A stretch of 64,000 nucleotides of DNA from assembly GCF_024298765.1 (NCBI RefSeq), contig NZ_CP101210.1; one strand, given 5' to 3'. A program made the position numbers and the translations under genes. The notes beneath the pieces were generated by a model. It ran no database searches, had not been told where the DNA came from, and was given only the letters and a program-made list of their open reading frames with translations. Positions within the stretch are counted from its first letter, which is position 1. Each line of letters begins with the position of its first letter. This document shows positions 1 through 64,000 of this stretch, piece by piece. The DNA is from Escherichia coli. Its GTDB lineage: Bacteria > Pseudomonadota > Gammaproteobacteria > Enterobacterales > Enterobacteriaceae.

Positions 1-62
1 TCGCGCTGTGCGTCTTCAAGTGATGAGTGGTCGAGGGCCAGTTGCAGAAGTGGTCGGCTCAT
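1..62 (-). CDS. sgbH: 3-keto-L-gulonate-6-phosphate decarboxylase, N-terminal fragment (runs off window start)
   Basis: Reverse complement of nt 1-62 translates MSRPLLQLALDHSSLEDAQR; start codon overlaps lyxK stop (ATGA). Confidence 0.75.
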   Translation of the reverse strand, partial: MSRPLLQLALDHSSLEDAQR

Positions 63-1555
63 AATGTGTGCTCCTTGATGCGGGCGTGAAAGCCCTGAAG
101 TGCGGCAATGAGATGCTGATAACGTTGGTATTTTTGTTGGTAAAGCTGATGGGCGGTCATATCCGGCAGCAGGGTGCGTACCGGGTGCTGTAAATCACGT
201 TGGGCTTCGCTGAAATCGCGATAAACTCCGGTGCCGACGCGGGCGGCAAGTGCCGCACCAAAGCAGCCGGTTTCTTCCACCTGCGGCAGCTCGATACGCA
301 GACCGCTGACGTCCGCCAGCATTTGCATCCAGACATCGGAGTGCGCCGGACCGCCAGTGACGCGCAGGGTGTGCACATCAGTAAAACGTTCGCGCATCCG
401 GTTGAGATGGGTCATATGGCTGAACACCACGCCTTCATAAATGGCCTGCAACAGGTGTACGCGGGTGTGAATGGCCTGCATCCCGTAGAAACCGCTGGTC
501 ATCTCGAGTCCAGCGTTGCTGCCGTACAGGAACGGCAGGAAAAAGAGATCGCCCCCGGCCTTCGGCAAGCTGGCAACGGCCTGGTTGATCTCATCAAACG
601 AGATTTCTCCCCACTGTGTGGTAAACCATTCGAGATTGCCGGAAGAGGTGGGGCTTGCTTCATGAACGATAAATTGACCATCGTTAACGTAGCGACCATA
701 GACATACGGATGCGCTTCACCGTCACGTAAACCACGGGTTATGCCGCTGGTCACCGCCCAGGTGCCCATCACCGCATTGAGGGTAAATTCGTCTTCGATC
801 CCGGCGCAGAGTGCGGTGGAAACCACATCAAACAGGCCGCCGACAACGGGCGTACCCGCTTTCAGACCGGTCAGTGCGGCTGTCTGAGCGGTGATCTCCC
901 CGCAGATTTCGGCAGATCCGACAACAAGTGGCAGGGCGTGGTTGATTTCAGCGATTCCCAGCCAGTCGGTGAGGCACGGGTCATATTCCCCAAGACTCAT
1001 GTTGTAGAGATTGGACTCAGAAATATTGCTCTCTTCGCAACCTTTGACGCCGGTTAAACACCAGCGCAGGTAGTCGTGCGTCATCATCACGCAGCCAATT
1101 TGCGCGTAGCGTTCTGGTTCGTGCTCTTTCAGCCAGCGTAACAGCGACACCGGATGCCCGGTCCACAAGGTTTGTCGGGTCAGCGGGTAGAGTTTTTCCG
1201 GGATGCCATCTTCCTGCCAGCGACGAACGATTTCCATCGCCCGGCGATCCGAGGACAAAATGGCGTTACCGAGCGGCTTGTCGTTTTTATCCAGCAAAAA
1301 CAAGCCCTTTCCCTGTGCGGAGATGCCGATACCGACAATTTGTTCCCCGCTAACACCAGAATGAGTAAGCAGGGCGCGAATGACAGCCATGCAGCATTGC
1401 CACAGTTCTGCCATATCGCGCTCTGCCCAACCTGGCTGCGGGCTTAATGCGCACAGCGGCAGGCGCTGCACGCCTGCCTCCCGGCCTTCGCGGTCATACA
1501 GCCCGGCTTTCAGCCAGCTACCGCCACAATCTAACCCCAGCCAGTATTGCGTCAT
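59..1555 (-). CDS. lyxK: L-xylulose / 3-keto-L-gulonate kinase (FGGY family)
   Basis: 498-aa ORF with FGGY kinase N-terminus (LGLDCGGS); conserved position after yiaMNO. Confidence 0.9.
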   Translation of the reverse strand: MTQYWLGLDCGGSWLKAGLYDREGREAGVQRLPLCALSPQPGWAERDMAELWQCCMAVIRALLTHSGVSGEQIVGIGISAQGKGLFLLDKNDKPLGNAILSSDRRAMEIVRRWQEDGIPEKLYPLTRQTLWTGHPVSLLRWLKEHEPERYAQIGCVMMTHDYLRWCLTGVKGCEESNISESNLYNMSLGEYDPCLTDWLGIAEINHALPLVVGSAEICGEITAQTAALTGLKAGTPVVGGLFDVVSTALCAGIEDEFTLNAVMGTWAVTSGITRGLRDGEAHPYVYGRYVNDGQFIVHEASPTSSGNLEWFTTQWGEISFDEINQAVASLPKAGGDLFFLPFLYGSNAGLEMTSGFYGMQAIHTRVHLLQAIYEGVVFSHMTHLNRMRERFTDVHTLRVTGGPAHSDVWMQMLADVSGLRIELPQVEETGCFGAALAARVGTGVYRDFSEAQRDLQHPVRTLLPDMTAHQLYQQKYQRYQHLIAALQGFHARIKEHTL

Positions 1556-1558
1556 GGT

Positions 1559-2545
1559 TTATTGCACCTCATCCACGGCTTTCAGCAGCTCAGCGCCCTG
1601 CGGAACATCTTTAACAAACATGTCGCGGACCTGAGTACCCAGTGCGTCGCTAAAGGCTTTGCGGTCGAGATCGGTGATGACTTCCACGCCCGCTTCTTTC
1701 ATGCCGTCGATGATTTTTTGCTGATCTTCGGCAACCAGTTTGCGCTGGTAGTTACCCGCTTCCTGCGCAGATGAGATCAGCGCCTGCTGGAACTCTGGGG
1801 TTAAGCCGTCAAACTTCGCTTTGTTGATCACCACCAGAAGCGGGGAATAGGCGTGATGGGTCAGAGAAAGGTATTTCTGCACTTCGAAAAATTTTGCTGA
1901 CCAGACGACGTTGATAGGGTGTTCCTGAGCGTCGATAGTGCGGGTTTCCAGCCCGGTATAGACTTCGGCAAACGGCATCGGGATCGGGTTAGCGCCAAAG
2001 ACTTTGAATGCGGCGATATTCATCGGGCTATTGTTGGTGCGGATTTTCAGCCCTTTCAGGTCAGCAGGTGTTTTCACTGGCGCACGCGAGTTGGTGACAT
2101 CGCGCCAGCCGTTTTCCCAATAGGCCAGTACTTTCAGTCCTTTACCTTCAAGGGAGACTTTCAGGTCATCACCGACTTTGCCGTCGAGCGTTTTATGCGC
2201 GTGGGCGGTATCGCGGAACAGGAAAGGGACATCAAGCAGGTTCATCACAGGTGACAACCCGGCAAAGTTATTCGAGCCGGACATTTCCATATCGATGGTG
2301 CCGCCACGTACGCCGCTGATCATCGCCTGTGCGTTACCGAGAGTACTGTCCGGGAACAGTTTTAATTTCAGCTCGCCTTTGGTTCTCTCCTGCAATAAAT
2401 CATTGAATTTTTTCGCCGCAATATGTTGCGAGTCGGTTTGTGAGGTTTCATAACCGAAACGTAAAGATTGCGCCGCCAGTGAAGATGTACTAAATGCAGC
2501 CAGGCCAGCAATGAATAATGCGTAGGTTACAGAGCGTAATTTCAT
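1559..2545 (-). CDS. yiaO: TRAP transporter periplasmic solute-binding protein (2,3-diketo-L-gulonate)
   Basis: 328-aa ORF with signal peptide; DctP-like; adjacent to TRAP permease genes. Confidence 0.9.
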   Translation of the reverse strand: MKLRSVTYALFIAGLAAFSTSSLAAQSLRFGYETSQTDSQHIAAKKFNDLLQERTKGELKLKLFPDSTLGNAQAMISGVRGGTIDMEMSGSNNFAGLSPVMNLLDVPFLFRDTAHAHKTLDGKVGDDLKVSLEGKGLKVLAYWENGWRDVTNSRAPVKTPADLKGLKIRTNNSPMNIAAFKVFGANPIPMPFAEVYTGLETRTIDAQEHPINVVWSAKFFEVQKYLSLTHHAYSPLLVVINKAKFDGLTPEFQQALISSAQEAGNYQRKLVAEDQQKIIDGMKEAGVEVITDLDRKAFSDALGTQVRDMFVKDVPQGAELLKAVDEVQ

Positions 2546-2557
2546 AATATTTTCCTT

Positions 2558-3835
2558 TTAATTAATCCATTTCAAAGGGAGGATGATGAGATCGGGAATA
2601 AAAACAAATACGACTAATAATGAATATAAAACCAGGACGTAAGGGAAAACGCCTCTGACTGCATCATCGAATTTGAGTTTTGCCACCCCTGAAATAACGT
2701 TAAGCACATTACCGATAGGCGGTGTAATTAAGCCGATTGAGCAGTTAATGATAAACATGACACCGAAATAAATCGGATCGATTCCTGCCTCTTTAACTAA
2801 AGGCATTAATACCGGGGTAAGAATTAATACCGTCGGCGTTAAATCCATGACCATGCCGACAATCAGGATAGCCACCATAATGACGATAAACAGCAGACGC
2901 GGTGAATCGACCAGCGGTTGCAGTAAATCAGAAACCATCATCGGCAGTTCAGCAATGGTGATCAGCCAGGCGGAAACTTGTGCCGAGGCTACCAGAAACA
3001 TCACCACTGAGGTCGTTTTCGCTGCGCCAATGAGCACATGCCAAAGTGTGGCGAAGGTCATTTCACGGTAAATAACTGTGGCGACAAACAGCGCATAGAA
3101 AGCAGCAACGGCCCCGGCTTCGGTAGGGGTAAACAGACCGGAGCGAAACCCGCCAATAATGATGACTGGAAGAAACAGCGCCCAGATACCGGAGACAAAA
3201 GAGTGCCAGATTTCCTGCATCGTTGCTTTTTGCTGGCGGGGTAAATTAAGGCGACTGGCCTGCCACCACCAGGTAAGCATCAGCGTTGCGCCCATCATCA
3301 TGCCAGGGGCAATGCCCGCCATAAACAGCTTACTGATGGATAATCCGCTGGAAACGCCGAAAATAATAAACGGAATGGAAGGGGGAATAATTGGCGCGAT
3401 AATGCCGCCAGAGGCAATCAGCCCCGCAGCCCGGTTGACCGGGTAGTTAGCGCTGCGCATCATCGGCACTAATAGCGCGGCAACGGCGGCGGTATCAGCA
3501 ACAGCAGAACCAGAAAGGCTCGCCATAATCATAGCCGCCAGCACGCCGACGTAGCCCAACCCGCCAGGTTTATGCCCCACCAGTTTCATCGGCAGGTCAA
3601 CAATGCGTTTTGACAAGCCGCCCGCATTCATGATTTCACCCGCCAGCACAAAGAACGGAATCGCCAGCAGGGAGAAGCTGTCGGCTCCGTTCACCAGCGT
3701 TTGTGCCATGATCTGGACATCAAACATGTCCAGCCAGAACATTAACGCCGCTCCGCACAACAACAGTGCCCAGGCAATAGGCAAACCGATAGCAATACCA
3801 CCCAACAGACAGCCCAGAAAAATCAGCACAGCCAT
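2558..3835 (-). CDS. yiaN: TRAP transporter large permease subunit
   Basis: 425-aa highly hydrophobic ORF, DctM-like. Confidence 0.9.
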   Translation of the reverse strand: MAVLIFLGCLLGGIAIGLPIAWALLLCGAALMFWLDMFDVQIMAQTLVNGADSFSLLAIPFFVLAGEIMNAGGLSKRIVDLPMKLVGHKPGGLGYVGVLAAMIMASLSGSAVADTAAVAALLVPMMRSANYPVNRAAGLIASGGIIAPIIPPSIPFIIFGVSSGLSISKLFMAGIAPGMMMGATLMLTWWWQASRLNLPRQQKATMQEIWHSFVSGIWALFLPVIIIGGFRSGLFTPTEAGAVAAFYALFVATVIYREMTFATLWHVLIGAAKTTSVVMFLVASAQVSAWLITIAELPMMVSDLLQPLVDSPRLLFIVIMVAILIVGMVMDLTPTVLILTPVLMPLVKEAGIDPIYFGVMFIINCSIGLITPPIGNVLNVISGVAKLKFDDAVRGVFPYVLVLYSLLVVFVFIPDLIILPLKWIN

Positions 3836-3837
3836 GA

Positions 3838-4311
3838 TTAAGCTCCTTGCGGTGGCGACGTTAGAGAATTGCTACGCGTGATGAGTTGATATAAATGACG
3901 CAGTTCAAAGAATGCGATAACGAGGCTGGTGGGCAGACAAGCGGCATACATCAGGCCGATGGGCAAACCGAGGATCGGTGAATAATCGCTCCAGTCCTGA
4001 ATTGTTTTTAGCGTTGCGCCCCAGGCCAGTGCGCCACAAATAAATAAGATTAAGGAATGGGTAACCAGAGCGACTCGTCGCTGCCATGCGGGGGAGAGTT
4101 TCTCCACCAGAAAGGTGACCTGAACGTGGGCGTTATCCATAAAAGCCACAATCGCGCCAATAAATGTTAACCAGACAAATAAATAACGTGACAATTCATC
4201 TACAGATAAAATGCTTGTCTGAAAACCATATCTTAAAATAATGTTTATAAACACAATACAGGAAAGTACGGCGAGATTAATCGCCAGTATTGCTTCAAGT
4301 ATTTTTTTCAT
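3838..4311 (-). CDS. yiaM: TRAP transporter small permease subunit
   Basis: 157-aa hydrophobic ORF, DctQ-like, 2 nt upstream of yiaN. Confidence 0.88.
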
Positions 4312-4428
4312 AGCTATTCCTTGAGGCTATGTCTGTCATAATTCAAGTTGCATGTGCAGCAACCTAAATTATTAATATAGTTAGAGCAATAACATTACCC
4401 AGGCGTTCTGGCGTAGACGATTATTCGA

Positions 4429-4899
<471 letters not shown>

Positions 4900-4907
4900 T
4901 TATCTCC

Positions 4908-5906
4908 TTATAACGCTTGGATTTTTGCCCACACGCTGTCATCAACGGTAATACCGTTACGGCGGTTTTCGGCCAGCAGGGTAGTAAATTCGTGGCCGGG
5001 TAAGCGAATGGCCTGATTTTCGTCAGCGCGTTCAGCGGTGGTAACGTAATCCATGATGCGTTGCAGTTTGGCATCGCGGGTGGGGCCGTCGATAAGCTTA
5101 TCTACTTCAATGGCAATAAAAATTTGTGAAATGCCGTATTCGTCGCTGTTGTCCTGGGTGACTTCGGCAACCGATGCGCCGTCAGAAAGGAGAGTGGCGA
5201 TCATATCCAGCACAATCGACATGCCCGAACCTTTCCAGTAACCCATCGGCAAAATGCGGCGATTCTTCTCGATAACGCCAGGTTCTTTGGTCAAATTGCC
5301 CTCATCATCAAAGCCACCATCGACCGGGAGCTGACGGCCTGCCAGACGGTTAACTTCTAACATGCCGTAAGAGAACATCGACATCGACATATCGACCATG
5401 GTGATTGGGGTAGAAGGAATGGCGACGATCAGCGGGTTAGTGCCGATGCGACACTCTTTTGCGCCCCACGGCGGCATTACGGCGATGGAGTTGGTCCAGC
5501 AAATGCCAATATAGCCTTTTTCCGCCGCCTGCCAGCCGTAGCTGCCGCCGCGCATCCAGTGGTTGGCATTACGTAGTGCCACCAGACCAATACCGTGATC
5601 GGCAGCCAGTTCAATGGCGCGATCCATCATCTTTTTCGCTGTCAGGTTACCGATCGAACGCTGGGCGTCCCACTGTTCAATTGCGCCGAGGCTGGTTATA
5701 CGTTTGGGTTGGGCATCAGGAATGATATCGCCGTTTTCCAGTTGTTGAATGAAACGAGGGAAACGGTTGACGCCGTGAGAATAAACGCCGGATTCGGTGG
5801 TGCGGGCGAACATTTCGGCACAGGCATCAGCCGTTTCGCTGTCAACGTCGCGTGAAATTAAGACTCGATTAAAGGCTGCTTTTAACTGCTCAAATGTCAC
5901 TTTCAT
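4908..5906 (-). CDS. yiaK: 2,3-diketo-L-gulonate reductase (Ldh_2 family)
   Basis: 332-aa ORF, first gene of the yiaK-sgb operon. Confidence 0.9.
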
Positions 5907-6106: not shown

Positions 6107-6955
6107 ATGGGGAAAGAAGTGATGGGAAAAAAAGAGAACGAGATGGCGCAGGAAAAAGAGCGTCCAGCCGGAAGCCAGAGTCTGTTTCGCGGGTTGATGC
6201 TGATTGAGATTTTGAGCAACTATCCAAACGGTTGTCCGTTGGCGCATCTTTCGGAGCTGGCTGGTTTAAATAAGAGTACCGTCCATCGCTTATTGCAGGG
6301 ATTACAATCCTGCGGCTATGTGACCACCGCGCCCGCCGCAGGGAGTTATCGCCTGACCACCAAATTTATTGCCGTCGGGCAGAAGGCGCTGTCTTCGCTG
6401 AATATCATTCATATCGCCGCTCCGCATCTTGAGGCACTGAACATCGCCACTGGTGAAACTATTAACTTCTCCAGCCGCGAAGACGATCACGCTATTTTGA
6501 TTTATAAGCTGGAACCCACAACCGGGATGCTGCGAACCCGTGCCTATATTGGCCAGCATATGCCGCTCTACTGTTCCGCAATGGGCAAGATCTACATGGC
6601 GTTTGGCCACCCGGACTACGTGAAGTCATACTGGGAAAGCCATCAGCATGAGATCCAGCCGTTAACCCGCAATACCATTACCGAGCTGCCCGCGATGTTC
6701 GACGAACTGGCGCACATTCGTGAAAGCGGAGCGGCGATGGACAGAGAAGAAAACGAACTCGGCGTCTCCTGTATTGCTGTTCCGGTGTTTGATATTCATG
6801 GGCGGGTGCCGTACGCCGTGTCGATTTCGCTTTCGACATCACGTCTGAAACAGGTGGGGGAGAAAAATCTCCTGAAACCACTGCGTGAAACCGCGCAGGC
6901 TATTTCTAATGAACTGGGATTTACTGTCAGGGACGACCAGGGCGCGATCACATAA
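6107..6955 (+). CDS. yiaJ: IclR-family transcriptional repressor of the yiaK-S operon
   Basis: 282-aa ORF with N-terminal HTH and C-terminal IclR effector domain; exact start uncertain. Confidence 0.88.
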   Translation: MGKEVMGKKENEMAQEKERPAGSQSLFRGLMLIEILSNYPNGCPLAHLSELAGLNKSTVHRLLQGLQSCGYVTTAPAAGSYRLTTKFIAVGQKALSSLNIIHIAAPHLEALNIATGETINFSSREDDHAILIYKLEPTTGMLRTRAYIGQHMPLYCSAMGKIYMAFGHPDYVKSYWESHQHEIQPLTRNTITELPAMFDELAHIRESGAAMDREENELGVSCIAVPVFDIHGRVPYAVSISLSTSRLKQVGEKNLLKPLRETAQAISNELGFTVRDDQGAIT

Positions 6956-7050
6956 CGCTTTGGACAAGTGCCAAAACTTTAACATTTCCTTCGTTGGATC
7001 AAAGCAGTAGAGACGCGCTCTCTGGCACTCTGCTGTTTTAGTGCAAAGGA

Positions 7051-7530
7051 GTGATCATGAACCGGTTTATTATTGCGGATGCGACGAAATGTATCGGTTG
7101 CCGTACCTGTGAAGTGGCTTGCGCAGTGTCGCATCAGGAGAATCAGGATTGCGCTGCGTTGTCACCAGACGAGTTTATTTCCCGTATTCGTGTCATTAAA
7201 GACCACACATGGACCACGGCTGTAGCCTGCCATCAGTGTGAAGATGCACCGTGCGCGAATGTCTGCCCTGTTGACGCGATAAGCCGCGAACATGGGCATA
7301 TTTTCGTTGAACAATCACGTTGCATTGGCTGTAAAAGCTGTATGCTGGCTTGCCCGTTTGGTGCGATGGAGGTCGTTTCTTCGCGCAAAAAGGCGAGGGC
7401 GATTAAGTGCGATCTGTGCTGGCATCGGGCGACGGGACCGGCCTGTGTTGAAGCCTGCCCGACAAAGGCGTTGCAGTGCATGGATGTCGAGAAAGTGCAG
7501 CGACATCGGCTACGGCAGCAGCCTGTTTGA
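7051..7530 (+). CDS. ysaA: 4Fe-4S ferredoxin-type protein
   Basis: 159-aa ORF with repeated CxxCxxCxxxCP cysteine clusters. Confidence 0.85.
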   Translation: MIMNRFIIADATKCIGCRTCEVACAVSHQENQDCAALSPDEFISRIRVIKDHTWTTAVACHQCEDAPCANVCPVDAISREHGHIFVEQSRCIGCKSCMLACPFGAMEVVSSRKKARAIKCDLCWHRATGPACVEACPTKALQCMDVEKVQRHRLRQQPV

Positions 7531-7564
7531 AACGTTTTTCCGGCGTTTCTCAACGCAGGGATAG

Positions 7565-7680
7565 TGCGCTTTGTTTATGCCGGATGCGGCTAAAACGCCT
7601 TATCCGGCCTACAAATTCTACCAAATTCAATATATTGCAGAAATCATGTAGGCCTGATAAGCGTAGCGCATCAGGCAATT
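7565..7680. repeat. REP / BIME palindromic units
   Basis: gccggatgcggc...gccttatccggcctac and gtaggcctgataagcg...gcatcaggc motifs between convergent ysaA and avtA. Confidence 0.7.
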
Positions 7681-7681
7681 T

Positions 7682-8935: not shown

Positions 8936-9112
8936 AGCGGGATATCTGTCGAACTCTGTAGCAAGGAAGGTAACAATAACGCTACATTTGCTGGGGTGCA
9001 AATCGCTCTGTTGAAGAGGGAGCGGTGCTTTATCCTGCAACGCTGATTAGAGCTGACATTTTATCCTGGTTGGCGGCTTCCCGAGGTACTGACGAACGGG
9101 AAGCCGGAAAAG

Positions 9113-11143: not shown

Positions 11144-11462
11144 GGCGGATGAGTCCTTATTGCTGCGATTTCAGACAGTTTGCCAGCGATAAGCCAGACA
11201 AAACTCATCCCTGAGCGGTAAGTCCACAGGATGAGAAGCAAGGGTGAGCGATCGCGCACAAAAAACGGCTGAATTTTGCGATAAACCCCACATTTTCTGC
11301 GATTTAGCGCCAATCTGAATCGTTAACTCGTGACATAGTTTCAGATTTGGACTATTCCTTGGGGTGCTCTTGACAGCTATTTTTGATATGATTTGAGATT
11401 CAACTCTCAAATTTGTGAAAAATATAAGGTGTTGGAATGATTAAATCCGACCAGGAGACCTG
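11144..11462. promoter_or_regulatory. Divergent malS / bax promoter region with MalT-box-like GGATGA
   Basis: GGATGA hexamer near 11228 upstream of malS; malS is MalT-dependent (established knowledge). Confidence 0.4.
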
Positions 11463-12287: not shown

Positions 12288-12300
12288 TTGCATTTCCTCG

Positions 12301-12338
12301 AGCCTTATCCGACTTGTCAGTCGGATAAGGCTTTTGCT
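12301..12338 (+). terminator. Rho-independent terminator after bax
   Basis: Perfect hairpin gccttatccgact-tgtc-agtcggataaggc followed by TTTTG. Confidence 0.65.
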
Positions 12339-12394
12339 CGCATCAGGTGGTTGTGCTGAGTTACCTGATGCGACGCCGACAATTCTCATCATCG

Positions 12395-13573: not shown

Positions 13574-13595
13574 GGTTCTTTTCCTGCTGAATCAT

Positions 13596-13640
13596 GCAAA
13601 AACTCAAAACCGGTAATACGTTACCGGCTTTGAGAAAATT
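13596..13640 (-). terminator. Hairpin terminator after xylH (between xylH and xylR)
   Basis: On minus strand aaagccggtaacgtattaccggttt followed by a T-run. Confidence 0.5.
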
Positions 13641-13650
13641 TTTATCAAAA

Positions 13651-16351: not shown

Positions 16352-16428
16352 AACGACTCCACCTAAGCCAATTCATTCACGCGGCATGGAGAGAAATCAC
16401 GCCCCCGCTCTGCGCCGGGGCGTAACGC

Positions 16429-17421: not shown

Positions 17422-17499
17422 GGTGTAGGGCCTTCTGTAGTTAGAGGACAGCTTTAATAAGTAACAATCACCGCGATAAACGTAACCAATTTTTAGCAA

Positions 17500-19109: not shown

Positions 19110-19129
19110 CGGCTAACTGTGCAGTCCGT

Positions 19130-19167
19130 TGGCCCGGTTATCGGTAGCGATACCGGGCATTTTTTTA
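19130..19167 (+). terminator. Hairpin plus T-run between xylA and xylB
   Basis: cccggttatcggtagcgataccggg followed by cattttttt. Confidence 0.45.
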
Positions 19168-19180
19168 AGGAACGATCGAT

Positions 19181-43700: not shown

Positions 43701-43709
43701 GGGGACATC

Positions 43710-44612: not shown

Positions 44613-44622
44613 GAGGTTCGAG

Positions 44623-54687: not shown

Positions 54688-57302
54688 GTATCCTGACCCG
54701 GTGGTTGCTTATCCCGCCGGTCAACGCACGGCTTATTGGGCGTTATCGCGATTATCGTCGTCACGGCGCGTCGGCTTTCAGCGCGACGCTCGGCTGTTTC
54801 TGGATGATCCTGGCCTGGATTTTTATTCCGCTGGAGCACCCGCGCTGGCAGCGTATTCGCGCAGAACATAAAAACCTGTATCCGCATATCAACGCCTCGC
54901 GTCCGCGTCCGCTGGACCCGGTCCGTTATCTTATTCAAACATGCTGGTTACTGATCGGTGCATCGCGCAAAGAAACGCCGAAACCGCGCAGGCGGGCATT
55001 TTCAGGTCTACAAAATATTCGTGGACGTTACCATCAATGGATGAACGAGCTGCCTGAGCGCGTTAGCCATAAAACACAGCATCTTGATGAGAAAAAAGAG
55101 CTCGGTCATTTGAGTGCCGGGGCGCGGCGGTTGATCCTTGGTATCATCGTCACCTTCTCGCTGATTCTGGCGTTAATCTGCGTTACTCAGCCGTTTAACC
55201 CGCTAGCGCAGTTTATCTTCCTGATGCTGCTGTGGGGGGTAGCGCTGATCGTACGGCGGATGCCGGGGCGCTTCTCGGCGCTGATGCTGATTGTGCTGTC
55301 GCTGACCGTTTCTTGCCGTTATATCTGGTGGCGTTACACCTCGACGTTAAACTGGGACGATCCGGTCAGCCTGGTGTGCGGGCTTATTCTGCTCTTCGCT
55401 GAAACGTACGCGTGGATTGTGCTGGTGCTCGGCTATTTCCAGGTCGTATGGCCTCTGAATCGTCAGCCGGTGCCATTGCCGAAAGATATGTCGCTGTGGC
55501 CGTCGGTGGATATCTTTGTCCCGACTTACAACGAAGATCTCAACGTGGTGAAAAATACCATTTACGCTTCGCTGGGTATCGACTGGCCGAAAGACAAGCT
55601 GAACATCTGGATCCTCGATGACGGCGGCAGGGAAGAGTTTCGCCAGTTTGCGCAAAACGTGGGGGTGAAATATATCGCCCGTACCACTCATGAACATGCG
55701 AAAGCGGGCAACATCAACAATGCGCTGAAATATGCCAAAGGCGAGTTCGTGTCGATATTCGACTGCGACCACGTACCAACGCGATCGTTCCTGCAAATGA
55801 CCATGGGCTGGTTCCTGAAAGAGAAACAGCTGGCGATGATGCAGACGCCGCACCACTTCTTCTCGCCGGATCCGTTTGAACGCAACCTGGGGCGTTTTCG
55901 TAAAACGCCGAACGAAGGCACGCTGTTTTATGGTCTGGTGCAGGACGGCAATGATATGTGGGATGCCACTTTCTTCTGCGGTTCATGTGCGGTGATTCGC
56001 CGTAAGCCGCTGGATGAGATTGGCGGAATTGCTGTCGAAACGGTAACCGAAGATGCGCACACTTCTCTGCGTCTGCACCGTCGAGGCTACACCTCAGCGT
56101 ATATGCGTATTCCGCAGGCAGCGGGGCTGGCGACCGAAAGTCTCTCGGCGCATATCGGTCAGCGTATTCGCTGGGCGCGCGGGATGGTGCAAATCTTCCG
56201 TCTCGATAACCCACTCACCGGTAAAGGGCTGAAGTTTGCTCAGCGGCTGTGCTATGTCAACGCCATGTTCCATTTCTTGTCGGGCATTCCACGGCTGATC
56301 TTCCTGACTGCGCCGCTGGCGTTCCTGCTGTTTCATGCCTACATCATCTACGCGCCAGCGTTGATGATCGCCCTGTTCGTGCTACCGCATATGATCCATG
56401 CCAGCCTGACTAACTCGAAGATCCAGGGCAAATATCGCCACTCTTTCTGGAGTGAAATCTACGAAACAGTGCTGGCGTGGTATATCGCACCACCGACGCT
56501 GGTGGCGCTGATTAACCCGCACAAAGGCAAATTTAACGTCACCGCCAAAGGTGGACTGGTGGAAGAAGAGTACGTCGACTGGGTGATCTCGCGGCCCTAC
56601 ATCTTCCTTGTTCTGCTCAACCTGGTGGGCGTAGCGGTTGGGATCTGGCGCTACTTCTATGGTCCGCCAACTGAGATGCTCACCGTGGTCGTCAGTATGG
56701 TGTGGGTATTCTACAACCTGATTATTCTCGGCGGCGCAGTCGCAGTATCGGTAGAAAGCAAACAGGTACGCCGATCGCACCGCGTGGAGATGACGATGCC
56801 CGCAGCAATTGCCCGCGAAGATGGTCACCTCTTCTCGTGTACCGTTCAGGATTTCTCCGACGGTGGTTTGGGGATCAAGATCAACGGTCAGGCGCAGATT
56901 CTGGAAGGGCAGAAAGTGAATCTGTTGCTTAAACGCGGTCAGCAGGAATACGTCTTCCCGACCCAGGTGGCGCGCGTGATGGGTAATGAAGTTGGGTTGA
57001 AATTAATGCCGCTCACCACCCAGCAACATATCGATTTTGTGCAGTGTACGTTTGCCCGTGCGGATACATGGGCGCTCTGGCAGGACAGCTATCCGGAAGA
57101 TAAGCCGCTGGAAAGTCTGCTGGATATTCTGAAGCTCGGCTTCCGTGGCTACCGCCATCTGGCGGAGTTTGCGCCTTCTTCGGTGAAGGGCATATTCCGT
57201 GTGCTGACTTCTCTGGTTTCCTGGGTTGTATCGTTTATTCCGCGCCGCCCGGAGCGGAGCGAAACGGCACAACCATCGGATCAGGCTTTGGCTCAACAAT
57301 GA
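54684..57302 (+). CDS. bcsA: Cellulose synthase catalytic subunit (GT2, PilZ domain)
   Basis: ORF trimmed to MSILTRWLLIPPVNARL start (872 aa); QxxRW motif (QRIRWARG). Confidence 0.95.
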   Translation: MSILTRWLLIPPVNARLIGRYRDYRRHGASAFSATLGCFWMILAWIFIPLEHPRWQRIRAEHKNLYPHINASRPRPLDPVRYLIQTCWLLIGASRKETPKPRRRAFSGLQNIRGRYHQWMNELPERVSHKTQHLDEKKELGHLSAGARRLILGIIVTFSLILALICVTQPFNPLAQFIFLMLLWGVALIVRRMPGRFSALMLIVLSLTVSCRYIWWRYTSTLNWDDPVSLVCGLILLFAETYAWIVLVLGYFQVVWPLNRQPVPLPKDMSLWPSVDIFVPTYNEDLNVVKNTIYASLGIDWPKDKLNIWILDDGGREEFRQFAQNVGVKYIARTTHEHAKAGNINNALKYAKGEFVSIFDCDHVPTRSFLQMTMGWFLKEKQLAMMQTPHHFFSPDPFERNLGRFRKTPNEGTLFYGLVQDGNDMWDATFFCGSCAVIRRKPLDEIGGIAVETVTEDAHTSLRLHRRGYTSAYMRIPQAAGLATESLSAHIGQRIRWARGMVQIFRLDNPLTGKGLKFAQRLCYVNAMFHFLSGIPRLIFLTAPLAFLLFHAYIIYAPALMIALFVLPHMIHASLTNSKIQGKYRHSFWSEIYETVLAWYIAPPTLVALINPHKGKFNVTAKGGLVEEEYVDWVISRPYIFLVLLNLVGVAVGIWRYFYGPPTEMLTVVVSMVWVFYNLIILGGAVAVSVESKQVRRSHRVEMTMPAAIAREDGHLFSCTVQDFSDGGLGIKINGQAQILEGQKVNLLLKRGQQEYVFPTQVARVMGNEVGLKLMPLTTQQHIDFVQCTFARADTWALWQDSYPEDKPLESLLDILKLGFRGYRHLAEFAPSSVKGIFRVLTSLVSWVVSFIPRRPERSETAQPSDQALAQQ

Positions 57303-57312
57303 TGATAACGCG

Positions 57313-59652
57313 ATGAAAAGAAAACTATTCTGGATTTGTGCAGTGGCTATGGGGATGAGTGCGTTCCCCTCTTTCATGACGCAGGCGACGCCAGCAACGC
57401 AACCACTGATCAATGCTGAGCCAGCTGTAGCCGCCCAGACGGAACAAAATCCGCAGGTGGGGCAAGTGATGCCGGGAGTGCAGGGCGCTGATGCGCCAGT
57501 CGTGGCGCAGAACGGTCCTTCGCGTGATGTGAAGCTGACCTTTGCGCAAATTGCGCCGCCGCCGGGCAGCATGGTGCTACGTGGCATTAACCCGAACGGC
57601 AGCATTGAGTTTGGTATGCGCAGCGATGAAGTGGTGACGAAGGCGATGCTCAATCTCGAATACACGCCATCGCCATCGTTACTGCCTGTCCAGTCGCAGT
57701 TAAAGGTTTATCTCAATGATGAACTGATGGGCGTGCTGCCAGTGACCAAAGAACAGTTGGGTAAAAAAACGCTGGCACAAATGCCAATTAACCCACTGTT
57801 TATTACCGACTTCAACCGTGTGCGGCTGGAGTTTGTCGGTCATTATCAGGACGTGTGCGAAAACCCGGCCAGCACCACGCTTTGGCTGGATGTTGGGCGG
57901 AGCAGTGGACTGGATCTGACCTATCAGACCCTGAATGTGAAGAATGACCTGTCACACTTCCCGGTGCCATTCTTTGACCCGCGTGATAACCGTACTAACA
58001 CCTTGCCGATGGTCTTTGCGGGTGCGCCGGATGTCGGGCTGCAACAAGCATCTGCCATTGTCGCCTCGTGGTTTGGTTCGCGTTCTGGCTGGCGTGGGCA
58101 GAACTTCCCGGTGCTCTATAACCAATTGCCGGATCGCAATGCCATCGTTTTTGCCACCAATGACAAACGCCCGGACTTCCTGCGCGATCATCCGGCGGTA
58201 AAAGCCCCGGTGATTGAAATGATCAACCATCCGCAGAATCCTTATGTCAAACTGCTGGTGGTGTTTGGTCGTGACGACAAAGACCTGTTGCAGGCAGCGA
58301 AAGGTATCGCTCAGGGTAACATTCTGTTCCGTGGTGAAAGCGTGGTAGTGAATGAAGTGAAACCGCTGCTACCGCGTAAGCCGTACGATGCGCCGAACTG
58401 GGTGCGTACCGATCGTCCGGTTACCTTTGGTGAACTGAAAACCTATGAAGAACAGTTACAATCCAGCGGTCTTGAGCCAGCAGCGATTAACGTTTCGCTA
58501 AACCTGCCGCCGGATCTCTACCTGATGCGCAGTACCGGCATTGATATGGATATTAATTATCGCTACACCATGCCGCCAGTGAAAGACAGCTCACGGATGG
58601 ATATCAGCCTGAATAACCAGTTCCTGCAATCCTTCAACCTGAGCAGTAAACAGGAGGCGAACCGCCTGCTGCTGCGTATTCCGGTATTACAAGGTTTGCT
58701 GGATGGCAAAACGGATGTCTCTATTCCGGCGCTGAAACTGGGCGCGACCAACCAGCTGCGCTTTGACTTTGAGTATATGAACCCGATGCCGGGCGGTTCG
58801 GTGGATAACTGCATTACCTTCCAGCCGGTGCAGAATCATGTGGTGATTGGTGATGATTCCACCATCGACTTCTCGAAGTATTACCACTTCATCCCGATGC
58901 CGGATCTACGCGCCTTTGCTAACGCGGGCTTCCCGTTCAGCCGGATGGCGGATCTGTCACAAACCATCACCGTGATGCCGAAAGCGCCTAACGAAGCACA
59001 GATGGAAACCTTGCTGAATACCGTTGGCTTTATCGGTGCGCAGACGGGCTTCCCGGCGATTAACCTGACGGTGACCGATGATGGCAGCACTATTCAGGGG
59101 AAAGATGCCGACATCATGATCGTCGGTGGTATCCCGGACAAACTGAAAGACGACAAGCAGATCGACCTGTTGGTGCAGGCGACCGAAAGCTGGGTGAAAA
59201 CGCCGATGCGCCAGACCCCGTTCCCCGGCATTGTACCGGACGAGAGCGATCGCGCGGCAGAAACTCAGTCAACGCTGACCTCTTCAGGTGCGATGGCAGC
59301 GGTGATTGGCTTCCAGTCGCCGTATAACGACCAGCGTAGCGTGATTGCGCTGCTGGCAGATAGCCCACGCGGTTATGAAATGCTTAACGATGCGGTGAAC
59401 GATAGCGGCAAACGCGCCACCATGTTCGGTTCGGTCGCGGTGATCCGCGAGTCCGGTATCAATAGCCTGCGTGTTGGCGACGTCTATTACGTTGGCCATC
59501 TGCCGTGGTTCGAACGCTTATGGTATGCGCTGGCAAACCATCCGATTCTGCTGGCGGTGCTGGCGGCAATCAGCGTCGTGCTGCTGGCATGGGTACTGTG
59601 GCGTCTGCTGCGTATTATCAGCCGTCGTCGTCTTAACCCGGATAACGAGTAA
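57313..59652 (+). CDS. bcsB: Cellulose synthase periplasmic subunit BcsB
   Basis: ORF trimmed to MKRKLFWICAVAMGMSAF start (779 aa); C-terminal TM anchor. Confidence 0.95.
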   Translation: MKRKLFWICAVAMGMSAFPSFMTQATPATQPLINAEPAVAAQTEQNPQVGQVMPGVQGADAPVVAQNGPSRDVKLTFAQIAPPPGSMVLRGINPNGSIEFGMRSDEVVTKAMLNLEYTPSPSLLPVQSQLKVYLNDELMGVLPVTKEQLGKKTLAQMPINPLFITDFNRVRLEFVGHYQDVCENPASTTLWLDVGRSSGLDLTYQTLNVKNDLSHFPVPFFDPRDNRTNTLPMVFAGAPDVGLQQASAIVASWFGSRSGWRGQNFPVLYNQLPDRNAIVFATNDKRPDFLRDHPAVKAPVIEMINHPQNPYVKLLVVFGRDDKDLLQAAKGIAQGNILFRGESVVVNEVKPLLPRKPYDAPNWVRTDRPVTFGELKTYEEQLQSSGLEPAAINVSLNLPPDLYLMRSTGIDMDINYRYTMPPVKDSSRMDISLNNQFLQSFNLSSKQEANRLLLRIPVLQGLLDGKTDVSIPALKLGATNQLRFDFEYMNPMPGGSVDNCITFQPVQNHVVIGDDSTIDFSKYYHFIPMPDLRAFANAGFPFSRMADLSQTITVMPKAPNEAQMETLLNTVGFIGAQTGFPAINLTVTDDGSTIQGKDADIMIVGGIPDKLKDDKQIDLLVQATESWVKTPMRQTPFPGIVPDESDRAAETQSTLTSSGAMAAVIGFQSPYNDQRSVIALLADSPRGYEMLNDAVNDSGKRATMFGSVAVIRESGINSLRVGDVYYVGHLPWFERLWYALANHPILLAVLAAISVVLLAWVLWRLLRIISRRRLNPDNE

Positions 59653-59658
59653 TTGAAG

Positions 59659-60765
59659 ATGAATGTGTTGCGTAGTGGACTCGTGACGATGCTGCTGCTG
59701 GCTGCCTTTAGTGTTCAGGCAGCCTGTACCTGGCCTGCCTGGGAGCAGTTTAAAAAGGATTACATCAGTCAGGAAGGGCGCGTCATCGACCCCAGCGACG
59801 CGCGCAAAATCACCACCTCCGAAGGGCAAAGTTACGGCATGTTCTTTGCCCTGGCGGCTAACGACCGTGCAGCTTTCGATAATCTTCTCGACTGGACGCA
59901 GAACAATCTCGCACAGGGTTCTTTAAAAGAACATTTGCCCGCCTGGCTGTGGGGCAAGAAAGAGAACAGTAAGTGGGAAGTGCTGGACAGCAATTCGGCC
60001 TCCGATGGTGATGTCTGGATGGCCTGGGCGTTGCTGGAGGCGGGGCGTTTGTGGAAAGAGCAGCGTTATACCGACATCGGCAGCGCATTGCTAAAACGTA
60101 TCGCGCGGGAGGAAGTGGTGACGGTGCCTGGGCTGGGCTCCATGTTGTTACCGGGCAAAGTGGGATTTGCAGAGGATAACAGCTGGCGTTTTAACCCCAG
60201 CTACCTGCCGCCGACGCTGGCGCAGTATTTCACCCGCTTTGGCGCGCCGTGGACCACGCTGCGCGAAACCAATCAACGTTTATTGCTGGAAACCGCCCCG
60301 AAAGGCTTTTCGCCAGACTGGGTGCGCTATGAGAAAGACAAAGGCTGGCAGCTAAAAGCCGAAAAAACATTGATCAGCAGCTACGACGCTATCCGCGTTT
60401 ACATGTGGGTAGGCATGATGCCTGACAGCGATCCGCAAAAAGCGCGGATGCTCAACCGGTTTAAACCGATGGCGACATTCACTGAGAAAAACGGTTATCC
60501 GCCGGAAAAAGTGGATGTGGCTACGGGGAAAGCGCAGGGTAAAGGACCGGTCGGTTTTTCTGCCGCCATGCTGCCCTTTTTACAAAACCGCGATGCGCAG
60601 GCCGTTCAGCGCCAGCGCGTGGCCGATAACTTTCCTGGCAGCGATGCCTATTACAACTATGTGCTGACCCTGTTTGGACAAGGCTGGGATCAACACCGTT
60701 TCCGCTTCTCGACAAAAGGTGAGTTATTACCTGACTGGGGCCAGGAATGCGCAAATTCACACTAA
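59659..60765 (+). CDS. bcsZ: Endo-1,4-beta-glucanase (GH8)
   Basis: ORF trimmed to [10 protein letters not shown] start (368 aa); signal peptide. Confidence 0.93.
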
Positions 60766-63700
60766 ACATATTCACGCTTTCCCTCGGTCTGGCCGTCATG
60801 CCGATGGTCGAGGCAGCACCAACCGCTCAGCAACAGTTGCTGGAGCAAGTTCGGTTAGGCGAAGCGACCCATCGTGAAGACCTGGTGCAACAGTCGTTGT
60901 ATCGTCTGGAACTTATTGATCCGAATAACCCGGACGTCGTTGCCGCCCGTTTCCGTTCTCTGTTACGTCAGGGCGATATTGATGGCGCGCAAAAACAGCT
61001 CGATCGGCTGTCGCAGTTAGCGCCGAGTTCAAATGCGTATAAATCGTCGCGGACCACAATGTTGCTTTCCACGCCGGATGGTCGTCAGGCACTGCAACAG
61101 GCAAGATTGCAGGCGACGACCGGTCATGCAGAAGAAGCTGTGGCGAGTTACAACAAACTGTTCAACGGTGCGCCGCCGGAAGGTGACATTGCCGTCGAGT
61201 ACTGGAGTACGGTGGCGAAAATTCCAGCTCGCCGTGGCGAAGCGATTAATCAGCTAAAACGCATTAATGCGGATACGCCGGGCAATACGGGCCTGCAAAA
61301 CAATCTGGCGCTATTGCTGTTTAGTAGCGATCGCCGTGACGAAGGTTTTGCTGTCCTGGAACAGATGGCGAAATCAAACGCCGGGCGCGAAGGGGCCTCT
61401 AAAATCTGGTACGGGCAGATTAAAGACATGCCCGTCAGCGATGCCAGCGTGTCGGCGCTGAAAAAATATCTCTCGATCTTTAGCGATGGCGATAGCGTGG
61501 CGGCTGCACAATCGCAACTGGCAGAACAGCAAAAACAGCTGGCCGACCCTGCTTTCCGCGCTCGTGCGCAAGGTTTAGCGGCGGTGGACTCTGGTATGGC
61601 GGGTAAAGCCATTCCCGAACTACAACAGGCGGTGCGGGCGAACCCGAAAGACAGTGAGACTCTGGGGGCGCTGGGCCAGGCGTATTCTCAGAAAGGCGAT
61701 CGCGCCAATGCGGTGGCGAATCTGGAAAAAGCCCTCGCCCTGGATCCGCACAGCAGCAACAACGACAAATGGAACAGTCTGCTGAAAGTAAACCGCTACT
61801 GGCTGGCAATCCAGCAGGGCGATGCTGCGCTGAAAGCCAATAATCCTGACCGGGCGGAACGGTTGTTCCAGCAGGCACGTAATGTCGATAACACCGACAG
61901 CTATGCGGTGCTGGGGCTGGGCGATGTGGCGATGGCACGCAAAGATTACCCCGCCGCTGAACGCTATTACCAGCAGACGCTGCGTATGGACAGTAGCAAC
62001 ACTAACGCCGTGCGCGGGCTGGCGAATATTTACCGCCAGCAGTCGCCAGAAAAAGCCGAAGCGTTTATCGCCTCGCTCTCTGCCAGTCAGCGGCGCAGCA
62101 TTGATGATATCGAACGCAGCCTGCAAAACGACCGTCTGGCACAGCAGGCAGAGGCACTGGAAAAGCAGGGCAAATGGGTGCAGGCGGCAGCACTTCAGCG
62201 GCAACGACTGGCGCTGGCCCCCGGCAGTGTATGGATTACTTACCGACTTTCACAGGATCTCTGGCAGGCCGGACAACGCAGCCAGGCCGATACGTTAATG
62301 CGTAATCTGGCGCAGCAGAAGCCGAACGACCCGGAGCAGGTTTACGCTTACGGGCTGTATCTCTCTGGTCATGACCAGGACAGAGCGGCGCTGGCGCATA
62401 TCAACAGCCTGCCGCGCGCGCAGTGGAGCAGCAATATTCAGGAGCTGGTTAATCGACTGCAAAGCGATCAGGTGTTGGAAACCGCTAATCGCCTGCGAGA
62501 AAGCGGCAAAGAAGCTGAAGCGGAAGCGATGCTGCGCCAGCAACCACCTTCCACGCGCATAGACCTCACGCTGGCTGACTGGGCGCAACAACGACGTGAT
62601 TACACCGCCGCTCGCGCTGCATATCAGAATGTCCTGACGCGGGAGCCAACTAACGCCGATGCCATTCTTGGTCTGACGGAAGTGGATATTGCTGCCGGTG
62701 ACAAAGCGGCGGCACGTAGCCAGCTGGCGAAACTGCCCGCCACTGATAACGCCTCTCTGAACACTCAGCGGCGCGTGGCGCTGGCGCAGGCGCAGCTTGG
62801 CGATACCGCAGCGGCGCAGCAGACGTTTAATAAGTTGATCCCGCTGGCAAAATCTCAGCCGCCGTCGATGGAAAGTGCGATGGTACTGCGTGATGGTGCG
62901 AAGTTTGAAGCGCAGGCGGGCGATCCAACGCAGGCGCTGGAAACCTACAAAGACGCGATGGTTGCATCCGGTGTGACCACGACGCGTCCGCTGGATAACG
63001 ACACCTTTACCCGACTGACCCGCAATGACGAGAAAGATGACTGGCTGAAACGCGGCGTGCGCAGCGATGCGGCGGACCTCTATCGCCAGCAGGATCTTAA
63101 CGTCACCCTTGAGCATGATTACTGGGGTTCGAGCGGCACCGGTGGTTACTCCGATCTGAAAGCGCACACTACCATGTTGCAGGTGGATGCGCCGTATTCT
63201 GACGGGCGGATGTTCTTTCGCAGTGATTTCGTCAATATGAACGTCGGCAGTTTCTCCACTAATGCCGATGGTAAATGGGATGACAACTGGGGCACCTGTA
63301 CATTACAGGATTGTAGCGGCAACCGCAGCCAGTCGGATTCCGGTGCCAGCGTGGCGGTCGGTTGGCGCAACGACACCTGGAGCTGGGATATCGGCACCAC
63401 GCCGATGGGCTTCAACGTGGTGGATGTGGTCGGCGGCATCAGTTACAGCGATGATATCGGGCCGCTGGGTTACACCGTTAACGCCCACCGTCGGCCCATC
63501 TCCAGTTCTTTGCTGGCCTTTGGTGGGCAAAAAGACTCCCCGAGCAATACCGGGAAAAAATGGGGCGGCGTGCGTGCCGACGGCGTGGGGCTAAGTCTGA
63601 GTTACGATAAAGGTGAAGCAAACGGCGTCTGGGCATCGCTTAGCGGTGATCAGTTAACTGGTAAAAATGTCGAAGATAACTGGCGCGTGCGCTGGATGAC

Positions 63701-64000
63701 GGGCTATTACTATAAGGTCATCAACCAGAACAATCGCCGCGTCACCATCGGCCTGAACAACATGATCTGGCATTACGACAAAGACCTGAGTGGCTACTCA
63801 CTCGGTCAGGGCGGTTACTACAGTCCGCAGGAATACCTGTCGTTTGCCATACCGGTGATGTGGCGGGAGCGCACGGAAAACTGGTCGTGGGAGCTGGGGG
63901 CGTCTGGCTCGTGGTCGCATTCACGCACCAAAACCATGCCGCGTTATCCGCTGATGAATCTGATCCCGACCGACTGGCAGGAAGAAGCTGCGCGGCAATC
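60747..64000 (+). CDS. bcsC: Cellulose synthase outer membrane subunit BcsC (TPR plus beta-barrel), 3'-truncated by window end
   Basis: Open frame from ATG at 60747 ([25 protein letters not shown]) to window end; absent from ORF track because it has no stop. Confidence 0.9.

What the first reader, a model, noticed from the sequence alone, without database searches (positions are those of the whole stretch)
1..64000. No undescribed multi-gene system apparent; strain is not K-12
Every gene-sized interval is accounted for by a well-known E. coli gene, and intergenic regions are explained by promoters, REP elements and terminators. The differences from K-12 noted above (IS at proK, four ldr units, different bcsQ lesion, IS-free hokA) indicate a different strain background rather than a novel system.
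Basis: inference. Interest (0 to 1): 0.15.

Follow-up and report, generated by a model that had tools for sequence, protein, structure and literature searches.

The report
Ordinary E. coli core chromosome, non-K-12 strain
This 64-kb window is an ordinary, fully annotated stretch of the E. coli core chromosome from a poultry-associated ST117-type strain; it differs from K-12 only by an insertion sequence, extra copies of a small toxin-antitoxin repeat, a short REP-element difference and a different knockout mutation in a cellulose gene.

Summary
The window differs at 3 bases in 64,000 from E. coli strain 104 (chicken, NZ_CP029164.1, 1038922-1102921). It is collinear with K-12 MG1655 3,748,638-3,685,920 at about 97.4% identity. 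All 54 protein-coding genes have full-length, syntenic K-12 orthologues at 94-100% amino-acid identity.

Only four differences from K-12 exceed 50 bp:
- A 1312-bp intact IS3-family element, with a TGT target duplication, lies 43 nt downstream of proK. It occupies this site in 71 of 5,426 complete genomes.
- There are four 483-bp ldr/rdl units where K-12 has one. Copy number ranges from 1 to 4 across strains.
- The K-12 IS150 at hokA is absent, leaving hokA/mokA/sok intact.
- The bax-xylR spacer carries a shorter REP element.

bcsQ carries TAA at codon 27, whereas K-12 has TAG at codon 6. This allele is found in only 16 genomes, a subset of the near-identical lineage. Two near-identical genomes, D10 and 14EC020, are published as ST117.

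No segment lacks an E. coli counterpart. Rfam, PADLOC and Pfam checks turned up nothing unexplained. The window is ordinary and of low interest.

The parts
1..5906 (-). 3' end of the sgbH/ulaD-like gene, then lyxK and yiaO, N, M, L, K (2,3-diketo-L-gulonate utilisation operon)
   Evidence: Strain 104 annotation. Products are 94.8-100% identical to K-12.
6107..26232 (.). yiaJ/plaR, ysaA, avtA, malS, bax, xylR, xylHGF, xylAB, yiaB, yiaA, wecH, ysaB, glyQ, glyS: core genes collinear with K-12
   Evidence: ysaB has a 9-bp in-frame insertion at 22880.
12336..12359 (.). Point in the bax-xylR spacer where K-12 carries about 112 bp of other sequence, including a REP unit. The window has a single REP-like palindrome here.
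   Evidence: BLAST block boundary. Both sequences were printed side by side.
26405..26706 (+). Intact hokA/mokA/sok type I toxin-antitoxin locus. mokA is 26494-26706 and hokA is 26554-26706. There is no IS150.
   Evidence: Rfam sok model matches 1-157/157 at 124 bits. The mokA-hokA frame is open. HokA is 94% identical to K-12 HokA. The K-12 IS150 at 3720633-3722075 is absent.
26839..27266 (-). cspA with its 5'-UTR thermoregulator
   Evidence: Rfam RF01766 at 501 bits. The protein is 100% identical to K-12 CspA.
27387..38371 (.). yiaG, yiaF, ghrB, yiaD, bisC, yiaC, tag, yhjY, yhjX, eptB: core genes collinear with K-12
38463..38539 (+). proK, tRNA-Pro(CGG), followed by its terminator hairpin at 38546-38577
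   Evidence: ARAGORN, Rfam tRNA, sequence
38583..39894 (+). Intact IS3-family insertion sequence of 1312 bp. The 3-bp target duplication TGT lies at 38580-38582 and 39895-39897.
   Evidence: Inverted repeat I1. orfA matches HTH_28 and orfB matches rve/rve_3. Slippery AAAAAAG at 38989. The element is absent from the K-12 locus. It occupies this site in 71 of 5426 genomes. It is full-length in 250 of 5426 genomes.
39889..40111 (+). RtT-like tRNA-linked repeat. It has about 1.6 copies of a 168-bp unit carrying the last 19 nt of proK plus the terminator. The first copy (38521-38582 plus 39895-40003) is split by the IS.
   Evidence: Rfam RtT at 100 bits, 39889-40022. Direct repeats D1 and D2. The same repeat is present in K-12.
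40116..40196 (-). REP/BIME element, detected as an Rfam naRNA4 hit, upstream of the dppA regulatory region
   Evidence: Conserved with K-12.
40766..47908 (.). dppABCDF and yhjV
48175..50024 (+). Tandem array of four 483-bp LDR units. The ldr ORFs are at 48384-48491, 48867-48974, 49350-49457 and 49833-49940 (+). The rdl antisense RNAs are at 48270-48335, 48753-48818, 49236-49301 and 49719-49784 (-).
   Evidence: Tandem Repeats Finder, Rfam rdlD x4, peptides. K-12 has one unit. Other strains have 1-4.
50027..53462 (-). bcsG, bcsF, bcsE
53735..64000 (+). bcsR, bcsQ (pseudogene), bcsA, bcsB, bcsZ, bcsC (cut by the window end)
54013..54015 (+). Premature TAA at codon 27 of bcsQ (CAA in K-12), directly followed by ATG at codon 28
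   Evidence: The exact 61-mer occurs in 16 of 5426 genomes. PGAP notes 'internal stop' in strains 104 and D10.

Best explanation
The window is a core-chromosome segment of an E. coli strain of the ST117-type, poultry-associated lineage. It corresponds to K-12 MG1655 3.686-3.749 Mb, running from lyxK to bcsC. It holds no undescribed multi-gene system.

Every difference from K-12 larger than 50 bp comes from a known process:
- an IS3-family element transposed into the RtT-like repeat just downstream of the proK terminator;
- unequal recombination expanded the ldr/rdl type I toxin-antitoxin repeat to four units;
- the K-12-specific IS150 insertion in the hokA locus is absent;
- REP-element content differs in the bax-xylR spacer.

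In addition, a point mutation (CAA to TAA at bcsQ codon 27) is independent of the K-12 lesion. By inference it inactivates BcsQ, and with it cellulose secretion, in a sub-clade of the lineage.
For: Shown directly:
- The window has 3 mismatches in 64,000 bases against strain 104.
- Many E. coli genomes cover it 100% at about 100% identity.
- It is collinear with K-12 at 93-99.8% identity in every 500-bp bin. Gaps occur only at the IS, the ldr array, the IS150 site and the bax-xylR spacer.
- All 54 CDS have full-length syntenic K-12 orthologues at 94-100% identity.
- The IS anatomy is complete.
- The ldr array is supported, and its copy number is polymorphic across strains.
- The bcsQ codons were compared directly.
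- D10 and 14EC020, both near-identical to the window, are ST117 according to PMC5508776 and PMC6206212.
- Rfam at gathering and at E-value thresholds finds only known elements.
- PADLOC finds nothing on nine of ten y-gene products.
- Long antisense ORFs have no Pfam domain.

From the literature:
- Tandem ldr-rdl duplication is lineage-specific (PMC2887945).
- Chromosomal hok/sok loci are either intact or disrupted by insertions (PMC4147584).
- Lineage-specific loss-of-function mutations in bcs genes, including BcsQ nonsense mutations, are already described (PMC10881479).
Against: Nothing contradicts this reading. There are four caveats:
- The comparison collection holds only complete RefSeq E. 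coli genomes.
- The ST117 assignment is indirect. It rests on near-identical genomes that were typed in papers, not on MLST of the source genome.
- About a dozen y-genes (yiaA, yiaB, yiaF, yiaG, yiaL, ysaA, ysaB, yhjY, yhjV, bax) are of poorly known function. 'Accounted for' therefore means annotated and conserved, not understood.
- The functional consequence of bcsQ Q27* was not measured.
Confidence: 0.95

Rival explanations
1. A foreign or undescribed multi-gene element is hidden in the window, and the first reader misassigned it to a known gene.
For: None. The only window-specific DNA relative to K-12 is the 1312-bp IS and three extra ldr units.
Against: The whole window matches many E. coli genomes at about 100% identity. 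Every CDS has a syntenic K-12 orthologue. The per-500-bp identity profile shows no divergent block. PADLOC and Pfam checks were negative. The YiaD hits to ZorB models are the generic OmpA/MotB peptidoglycan-binding domain of a protein 100% identical to K-12 YiaD, and there are no Zor partners.
Confidence: 0.02
2. The differences are more than neutral strain background. On this view the bcsQ Q27* allele is an adaptive loss of cellulose production in an ST117 sub-clade, paralleling the convergent bcs inactivation reported in ST95 and other ExPEC lineages.
For: The allele is confined to 16 of 5426 genomes, a subset of the roughly 71 near-identical genomes. Most are avian isolates, with some from humans and a dog. 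It is independent of the K-12 lesion. The stop removes everything after residue 26. Any restart at ATG-28 would lose the N-terminal GxxGxGTT nucleotide-binding motif. PMC10881479 documents clonal expansion after bcs loss-of-function mutations, including BcsQ nonsense mutations, in many STs.
Against: No phenotype data exist. Sixteen related genomes may represent a single neutral mutation that hitch-hiked. ST117 is not mentioned in the main text of PMC10881479. Even if true, this is another member of a described phenomenon, not a new system.
Confidence: 0.35
3. The window comes from a K-12 derivative or laboratory strain that has acquired a few rearrangements.
For: Gene order is identical to K-12.
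Against: There are about 1,530 substitutions (2.4-2.7% divergence) spread evenly along the window. The K-12 signature lesions, bcsQ TAG-6 and IS150 at hokA, are absent. The closest genomes are poultry, pig, dog and human isolates.
Confidence: 0

Closest known systems
E. coli K-12 MG1655 (NC_000913.3), 3,685,920-3,748,638, bcsC to lyxK
   Same: Gene content and order are identical, and all 54 CDS are orthologous at 94-100% amino-acid identity. Both carry the same RtT-like repeat downstream of proK, the same REP positions at ysaA-avtA and dppA-dppB, and the cspA thermoregulator.
   Different: Nucleotide divergence is about 2.5%. K-12 has IS150 in hokA/mokA, one ldr/rdl unit, bcsQ TAG at codon 6, about 112 bp of other sequence in the bax-xylR spacer and no IS at proK. 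The window has an intact hokA locus, four ldr units, bcsQ TAA at codon 27 and an IS3-family element after proK.
E. coli strain 104 (NZ_CP029164.1) and other ST117-type genomes (D10, 14EC020, EC12, CT282 and others)
   Same: Strain 104 has 3 mismatches over 64 kb. These genomes share the IS at proK, four ldr units and the bcsQ Q27* allele.
   Different: No listed genome was shown to be identical over the whole window. Other members of the roughly 71-genome lineage, such as 13P477T, 20Ec-P-124 and E371, are not among the 16 carriers of the Q27* 61-mer.
Ldr/Rdl (LDR) type I toxin-antitoxin repeats of E. coli
   Same: Each unit has a 35-aa Ldr peptide 94-97% identical to K-12 LdrD and a cis-antisense Rdl RNA matching Rfam rdlD at 80-90 bits. 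The tandem arrangement resembles K-12 ldrABC.
   Different: There are four units at the ldrD position instead of one. The unit-1 peptide has M26L, and all four have F3L relative to K-12 LdrD.
Lineage-specific bcs loss-of-function mutations in ExPEC (PMC10881479) and the K-12 bcsQ TAG-6 lesion
   Same: A premature stop in bcsQ sits at the head of the bcsQABZC operon and is clonally restricted.
   Different: The codon differs (27), the lineage differs, and the phenotype has not been tested here.

Membership tests
IS3-family insertion sequence | Length of 1.2-1.55 kb with imperfect terminal inverted repeats ending 5'-TG...CA-3' | tested here: met
   The element is 1312 bp (38583-39894), running TGACCC...TAGTCA, with 36-nt arms 75% complementary.
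IS3-family insertion sequence | Two overlapping ORFs, orfA with an HTH and orfB with a DDE/rve domain, joined by -1 programmed frameshifting at an A6G-type slippery site | tested here: met
   orfA matches HTH_28 and orfB matches rve and rve_3. AAAAAAG lies at 38989 near the end of orfA. PGAP annotates 'programmed frameshift'. Frameshifting itself was not assayed.
IS3-family insertion sequence | Short (3-5 bp) target-site duplication and an empty site in related genomes | tested here: met
   TGT flanks both ends. K-12 and most genomes have the uninterrupted site.
Ldr/Rdl type I toxin-antitoxin (LDR repeat) | A 35-aa hydrophobic Ldr peptide ORF | tested here: met
   There are four ORFs, 94-97% identical to K-12 LdrD.
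Ldr/Rdl type I toxin-antitoxin (LDR repeat) | A cis-encoded antisense Rdl RNA opposite the 5' leader of ldr | tested here: met
   Four Rfam rdlD hits at 80-90 bits (gathering score 50) lie on the opposite strand, 49 nt upstream of each ldr start.
Ldr/Rdl type I toxin-antitoxin (LDR repeat) | Toxicity of Ldr and repression by Rdl | not testable with these tools
   This needs expression experiments.
Hok/Sok type I toxin-antitoxin (chromosomal hokA) | A roughly 50-aa Hok ORF with an overlapping in-frame mok leader ORF | tested here: met
   The mokA-hokA frame is open over 70 codons, and HokA is 50 aa and 94% identical to K-12 HokA.
Hok/Sok type I toxin-antitoxin (chromosomal hokA) | An uninterrupted sok/leader region | tested here: met
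   The Rfam sok model matches full length (1-157/157) at 124 bits. There is no IS150.
Hok/Sok type I toxin-antitoxin (chromosomal hokA) | A functional killing and antisense control circuit (fbi, tac and dcb elements, processing) | not tested
   The fold-back elements of the mRNA were not analysed, so function is unknown.
E. coli-type Bcs cellulose secretion system | A complete gene set in divergent operons: bcsRQABZC and bcsEFG | tested here: met
   All genes are present and syntenic. bcsC is cut by the window end.
E. coli-type Bcs cellulose secretion system | An intact bcsQ reading frame, which is essential for secretion | tested here: not met
   TAA at codon 27. The system is therefore predicted to be non-functional. 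This is an inference, as for the K-12 lesion.
RtT / tRNA-linked repeat | A repeat unit downstream of a tRNA gene that carries the 3'-terminal nucleotides of that tRNA and matches the RtT covariance model | tested here: met
   Rfam RtT scores 100 bits against a gathering score of 45. A 67-nt repeat that includes the last 19 nt of proK recurs at 40004-40070.
Zorya anti-phage system (considered because of the PADLOC hit) | ZorA and ZorB together with their ZorC/D or ZorE partners in one operon | tested here: not met
   Only YiaD matches ZorB models, and only over the OmpA/MotB-like C-terminal domain. Its neighbours are ghrB and bisC. YiaD is 100% identical to K-12 YiaD.

The most novel reading that the evidence does not exclude
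The bcsQ Q27* allele (TAA directly followed by ATG-28) marks a cellulose-negative sub-clade of the poultry-associated ST117 lineage. On this reading it arose independently of the K-12 lesion and adds ST117 to the lineages showing convergent attenuation of cellulose production. The adjacent TAA-ATG might also allow termination-reinitiation that limits polarity on bcsA.
Probability: 0.3. Interest if true: 0.25.

Novelty: already known. Interest (0 to 1): 0.05.

Why it matters
It matters little. The result confirms that this window can be set aside as ordinary core genome. Its modest value lies in three lineage markers: the IS3-family element after proK in 71 of 5,426 genomes, bcsQ Q27* in 16 of 5,426, and four ldr units. 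These could serve to type an ST117 sub-clade. The independent bcsQ nonsense mutation is also a testable further example of the cellulose-loss pattern already published for ExPEC.

Tried and rejected
- PADLOC scan of ten poorly characterised products (YiaG, YiaF, YiaB, YiaA, YhjY, Bax, YsaA, YsaB, YiaL, YiaD). The only hits were YiaD against ZorB/MotB models. I rejected these as the generic OmpA-like domain.
- Pfam scan of seven long unannotated or antisense ORFs: 23470-24729, 31148-32362, 24889-25869, 62295-63167, 57003-57665, 38971-39600 and 39836-40414. None had a domain, so I treat them as shadow ORFs.
- Rfam scan at a permissive E-value. It added only sub-threshold hits: STnc370 at the glyS terminator, weak sok-model similarity in the ldr leaders, REP-derived naRNA4, and a Rev41 hit at 34 bits against a gathering score of 535.
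- Naming the IS. PGAP calls it only 'IS3 family transposase', and I found no named element. From memory, its ends differ from IS2, IS3, IS150, IS600, IS629 and IS911.
- A literature search for hokA/IS150 returned mostly irrelevant papers. The statement that K-12 hok loci are IS-disrupted rests on the K-12 annotation and a general review.
- No genome in the listed hits was shown to be identical across all 64 kb, so the exact source strain was not identified.
Full report
**Identity of the window.** Megablast of the three thirds of the window against 5,426 complete E. coli genomes found 100% coverage at about 100% identity in many genomes. Between 71 and 77 genomes were at least 99% identical, and nearly all the rest fell at 95-99%. 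A base-by-base comparison with E. coli strain 104 (chicken, China; NZ_CP029164.1, 1038922-1102921) gives 3 mismatches in 64,000 bases, at 5965, 9837 and 18986. Two of the near-identical genomes are typed in the literature. D10 (CP010157) is ST117 according to PMC5508776, and 14EC020 (CP024138) is ST117 according to PMC6206212. The window therefore comes from an ST117-type, poultry-associated lineage and not from K-12. This lineage assignment is indirect.

**Whole-window alignment to K-12.** The window is collinear with MG1655 3,748,638 to 3,685,920 on the reverse strand, in five blocks of 97.3-97.6% identity. A 500-bp identity profile ranges from 93.4% to 99.8% and shows no divergent island.

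Four differences exceed 50 bp:
- In the bax-xylR spacer, window 12336-12359 stands in for about 112 bp of K-12 sequence. The two versions differ in REP-element content.
- K-12 carries IS150 (3720633-3722075) inside mokA/hokA, whereas the window is uninterrupted there.
- The window has a 1312-bp insertion at 38583-39894.
- The window has four 483-bp ldr/rdl units where K-12 has one.

Small indels inside the blocks are single bases, apart from a 9-bp in-frame insertion in ysaB at 22880.

**Gene content.** Using the strain 104 coordinates, all 54 CDS translate to products with full-length matches at the syntenic K-12 position, at 94-100% amino-acid identity. The lowest are HokA (94%), YsaB (94.1%) and YiaL (94.8%). 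Genes, the tRNA and the IS cover 87.7% of the window. The largest non-coding gap is 871 bp (39895-40765). It contains the RtT-like repeat, a REP element and the dppA regulatory region, and it is also present in K-12.

**RNA families and other screens.** Rfam at gathering thresholds finds the following:
- the cspA thermoregulator;
- the sok region of hokA;
- RtT;
- four rdlD copies;
- proK;
- REP-derived families (naRNA4 and ES036).

A permissive scan adds only sub-threshold hits. PADLOC finds nothing on nine of ten poorly characterised products. YiaD matches ZorB models only through its OmpA/MotB-like domain, and it is 100% identical to K-12 YiaD, with ghrB and bisC as neighbours. Seven long antisense or unannotated ORFs have no Pfam domain.

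**The IS at proK.** The element begins TGACCC and ends TAGTCA, with 36-nt imperfect terminal inverted repeats and a TGT target duplication. It encodes an HTH orfA and an rve-domain orfB, with an AAAAAAG slippery motif at 38989. It is therefore an intact IS3-family element without cargo.

It lies 43 nt past the 3' end of proK and 8 nt after the T-run of the terminator, so the tRNA gene and its terminator are untouched. The insertion falls inside the first copy of a 168-bp tRNA-linked repeat. That repeat carries the last 19 nt of proK plus the terminator, and it recurs at 40004-40070. Rfam recognises it as RtT at 100 bits. K-12 has the same repeat, uninterrupted.

A junction-spanning query shows the IS at this site in 71 of 5,426 genomes. 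The IS itself is full-length in 250 of 5,426 genomes, at 1-5 copies per genome.

**The ldr/rdl array.** Tandem Repeats Finder gives period 483 and 3.8 copies with 96% matches at 48175-50024. Each unit has a 35-aa Ldr ORF on the + strand and an Rdl RNA on the - strand. Units 2-4 encode the same peptide. Unit 1 has M26L, and all four differ from K-12 LdrD by F3L. Other complete genomes carry 1, 2, 3 or 4 units at this position; APEC O78, for example, has four. Lineage-specific tandem duplication of ldr-rdl is described in PMC2887945.

**hokA.** The mokA-hokA reading frame (26494-26706) is open, and the Rfam sok model matches over its full length. I did not test whether the locus is functional.

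**bcsQ.** The window has TTG at codon 6 and TAA at codon 27, whereas K-12 has TAG at codon 6 and CAA at codon 27. The TAA is directly followed by ATG at codon 28. A restart there would lack the N-terminal GVRGGVGTTT motif.

The exact 61-mer around the TAA occurs in 16 of 5,426 genomes. Most are avian isolates, with D10 (dog), 14EC020, MSHS 133 and FDAARGOS_1286 (human) and one wastewater isolate. All other genomes differ by at least one base in the 61-mer. PGAP marks bcsQ as a pseudogene with an internal stop in strains 104 and D10.

Lineage-restricted loss-of-function mutations in bcs genes, including BcsQ nonsense mutations, have been published as convergent evolution in ST95 and many other STs (PMC10881479). 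This allele is therefore a further instance of a known pattern. Its effect on cellulose production is inferred, not shown.

**Verdict.** The stated refutation condition, an inserted segment with no counterpart in E. coli, is not met. The window is ordinary core genome, and interest is very low. The only mildly useful by-products are three lineage markers and a testable prediction of cellulose loss in an ST117 sub-clade.

Noticed in passing
window 54013-54018: The bcsQ premature TAA (codon 27) is immediately followed by ATG (codon 28). The allele occurs in only 16 of 5,426 complete genomes, a mostly avian subset of the roughly 71 genomes that share the IS at proK.
   Followed up: partly
window 38521-38587, 39889-40111: A 168-bp tRNA-linked repeat contains the last 19 nt of proK plus its terminator and matches Rfam RtT. 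The IS splits its first copy. The first 6 nt of the Rfam RtT hit (39889-39894) are actually the IS end.
   Followed up: partly
window 26894-27106 (-): RefSeq/PGAP names this gene 'cspE' in strain 104. The product is 100% identical to K-12 CspA, and the cspA thermoregulator model covers the locus at 501 bits.
   Followed up: yes
window 22880-22888: A 9-bp in-frame insertion in ysaB adds three residues to the signal-peptide region of the lipoprotein, giving 102 aa against 99 aa in K-12.
   Followed up: partly
window 29949-30608 (-): YiaD matches seven PADLOC ZorB/MotB models (best E = 4e-17) through its OmpA-like C-terminal domain. There are no Zor partners nearby, so this is a false lead for Zorya.
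   Followed up: yes
window 48716-48869, 49199-49352, 49682-49835 (+): The Rfam sok (hok leader) model gives weak sub-threshold hits of 28-30 bits on the ldr leaders of units 2-4. This hints at similar leader architecture in the two type I toxin families.
   Followed up: no
window 7563-7682 and 42405-42524: The REP/BIME elements in the ysaA-avtA and dppA-dppB spacers are inverted copies of the same repeat type. They are 88-90% identical to each other's K-12 counterparts, and both hit Rfam ES036.
   Followed up: partly
window 12336-12375: The bax-xylR spacer has a single REP-like palindrome where K-12 has about 112 bp of other sequence including a different REP.
   Followed up: yes
window 48384-48491: The first ldr unit encodes an M26L variant of the peptide encoded by units 2-4. 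Unit 1 differs from units 2 and 3 at 20-21 of 483 positions, whereas units 2 and 3 differ at 13.
   Followed up: partly
other genomes, hits H86-H90: In some E. coli genomes a three-unit ldr array next to yhjV is not followed by bcsG. This suggests deletions or rearrangements of the bcs region in those strains.
   Followed up: no
window 26240-26306 (-): A sub-threshold Rfam STnc370 hit (46 bits, gathering score 54) overlaps the glyS terminator hairpin.
   Followed up: no
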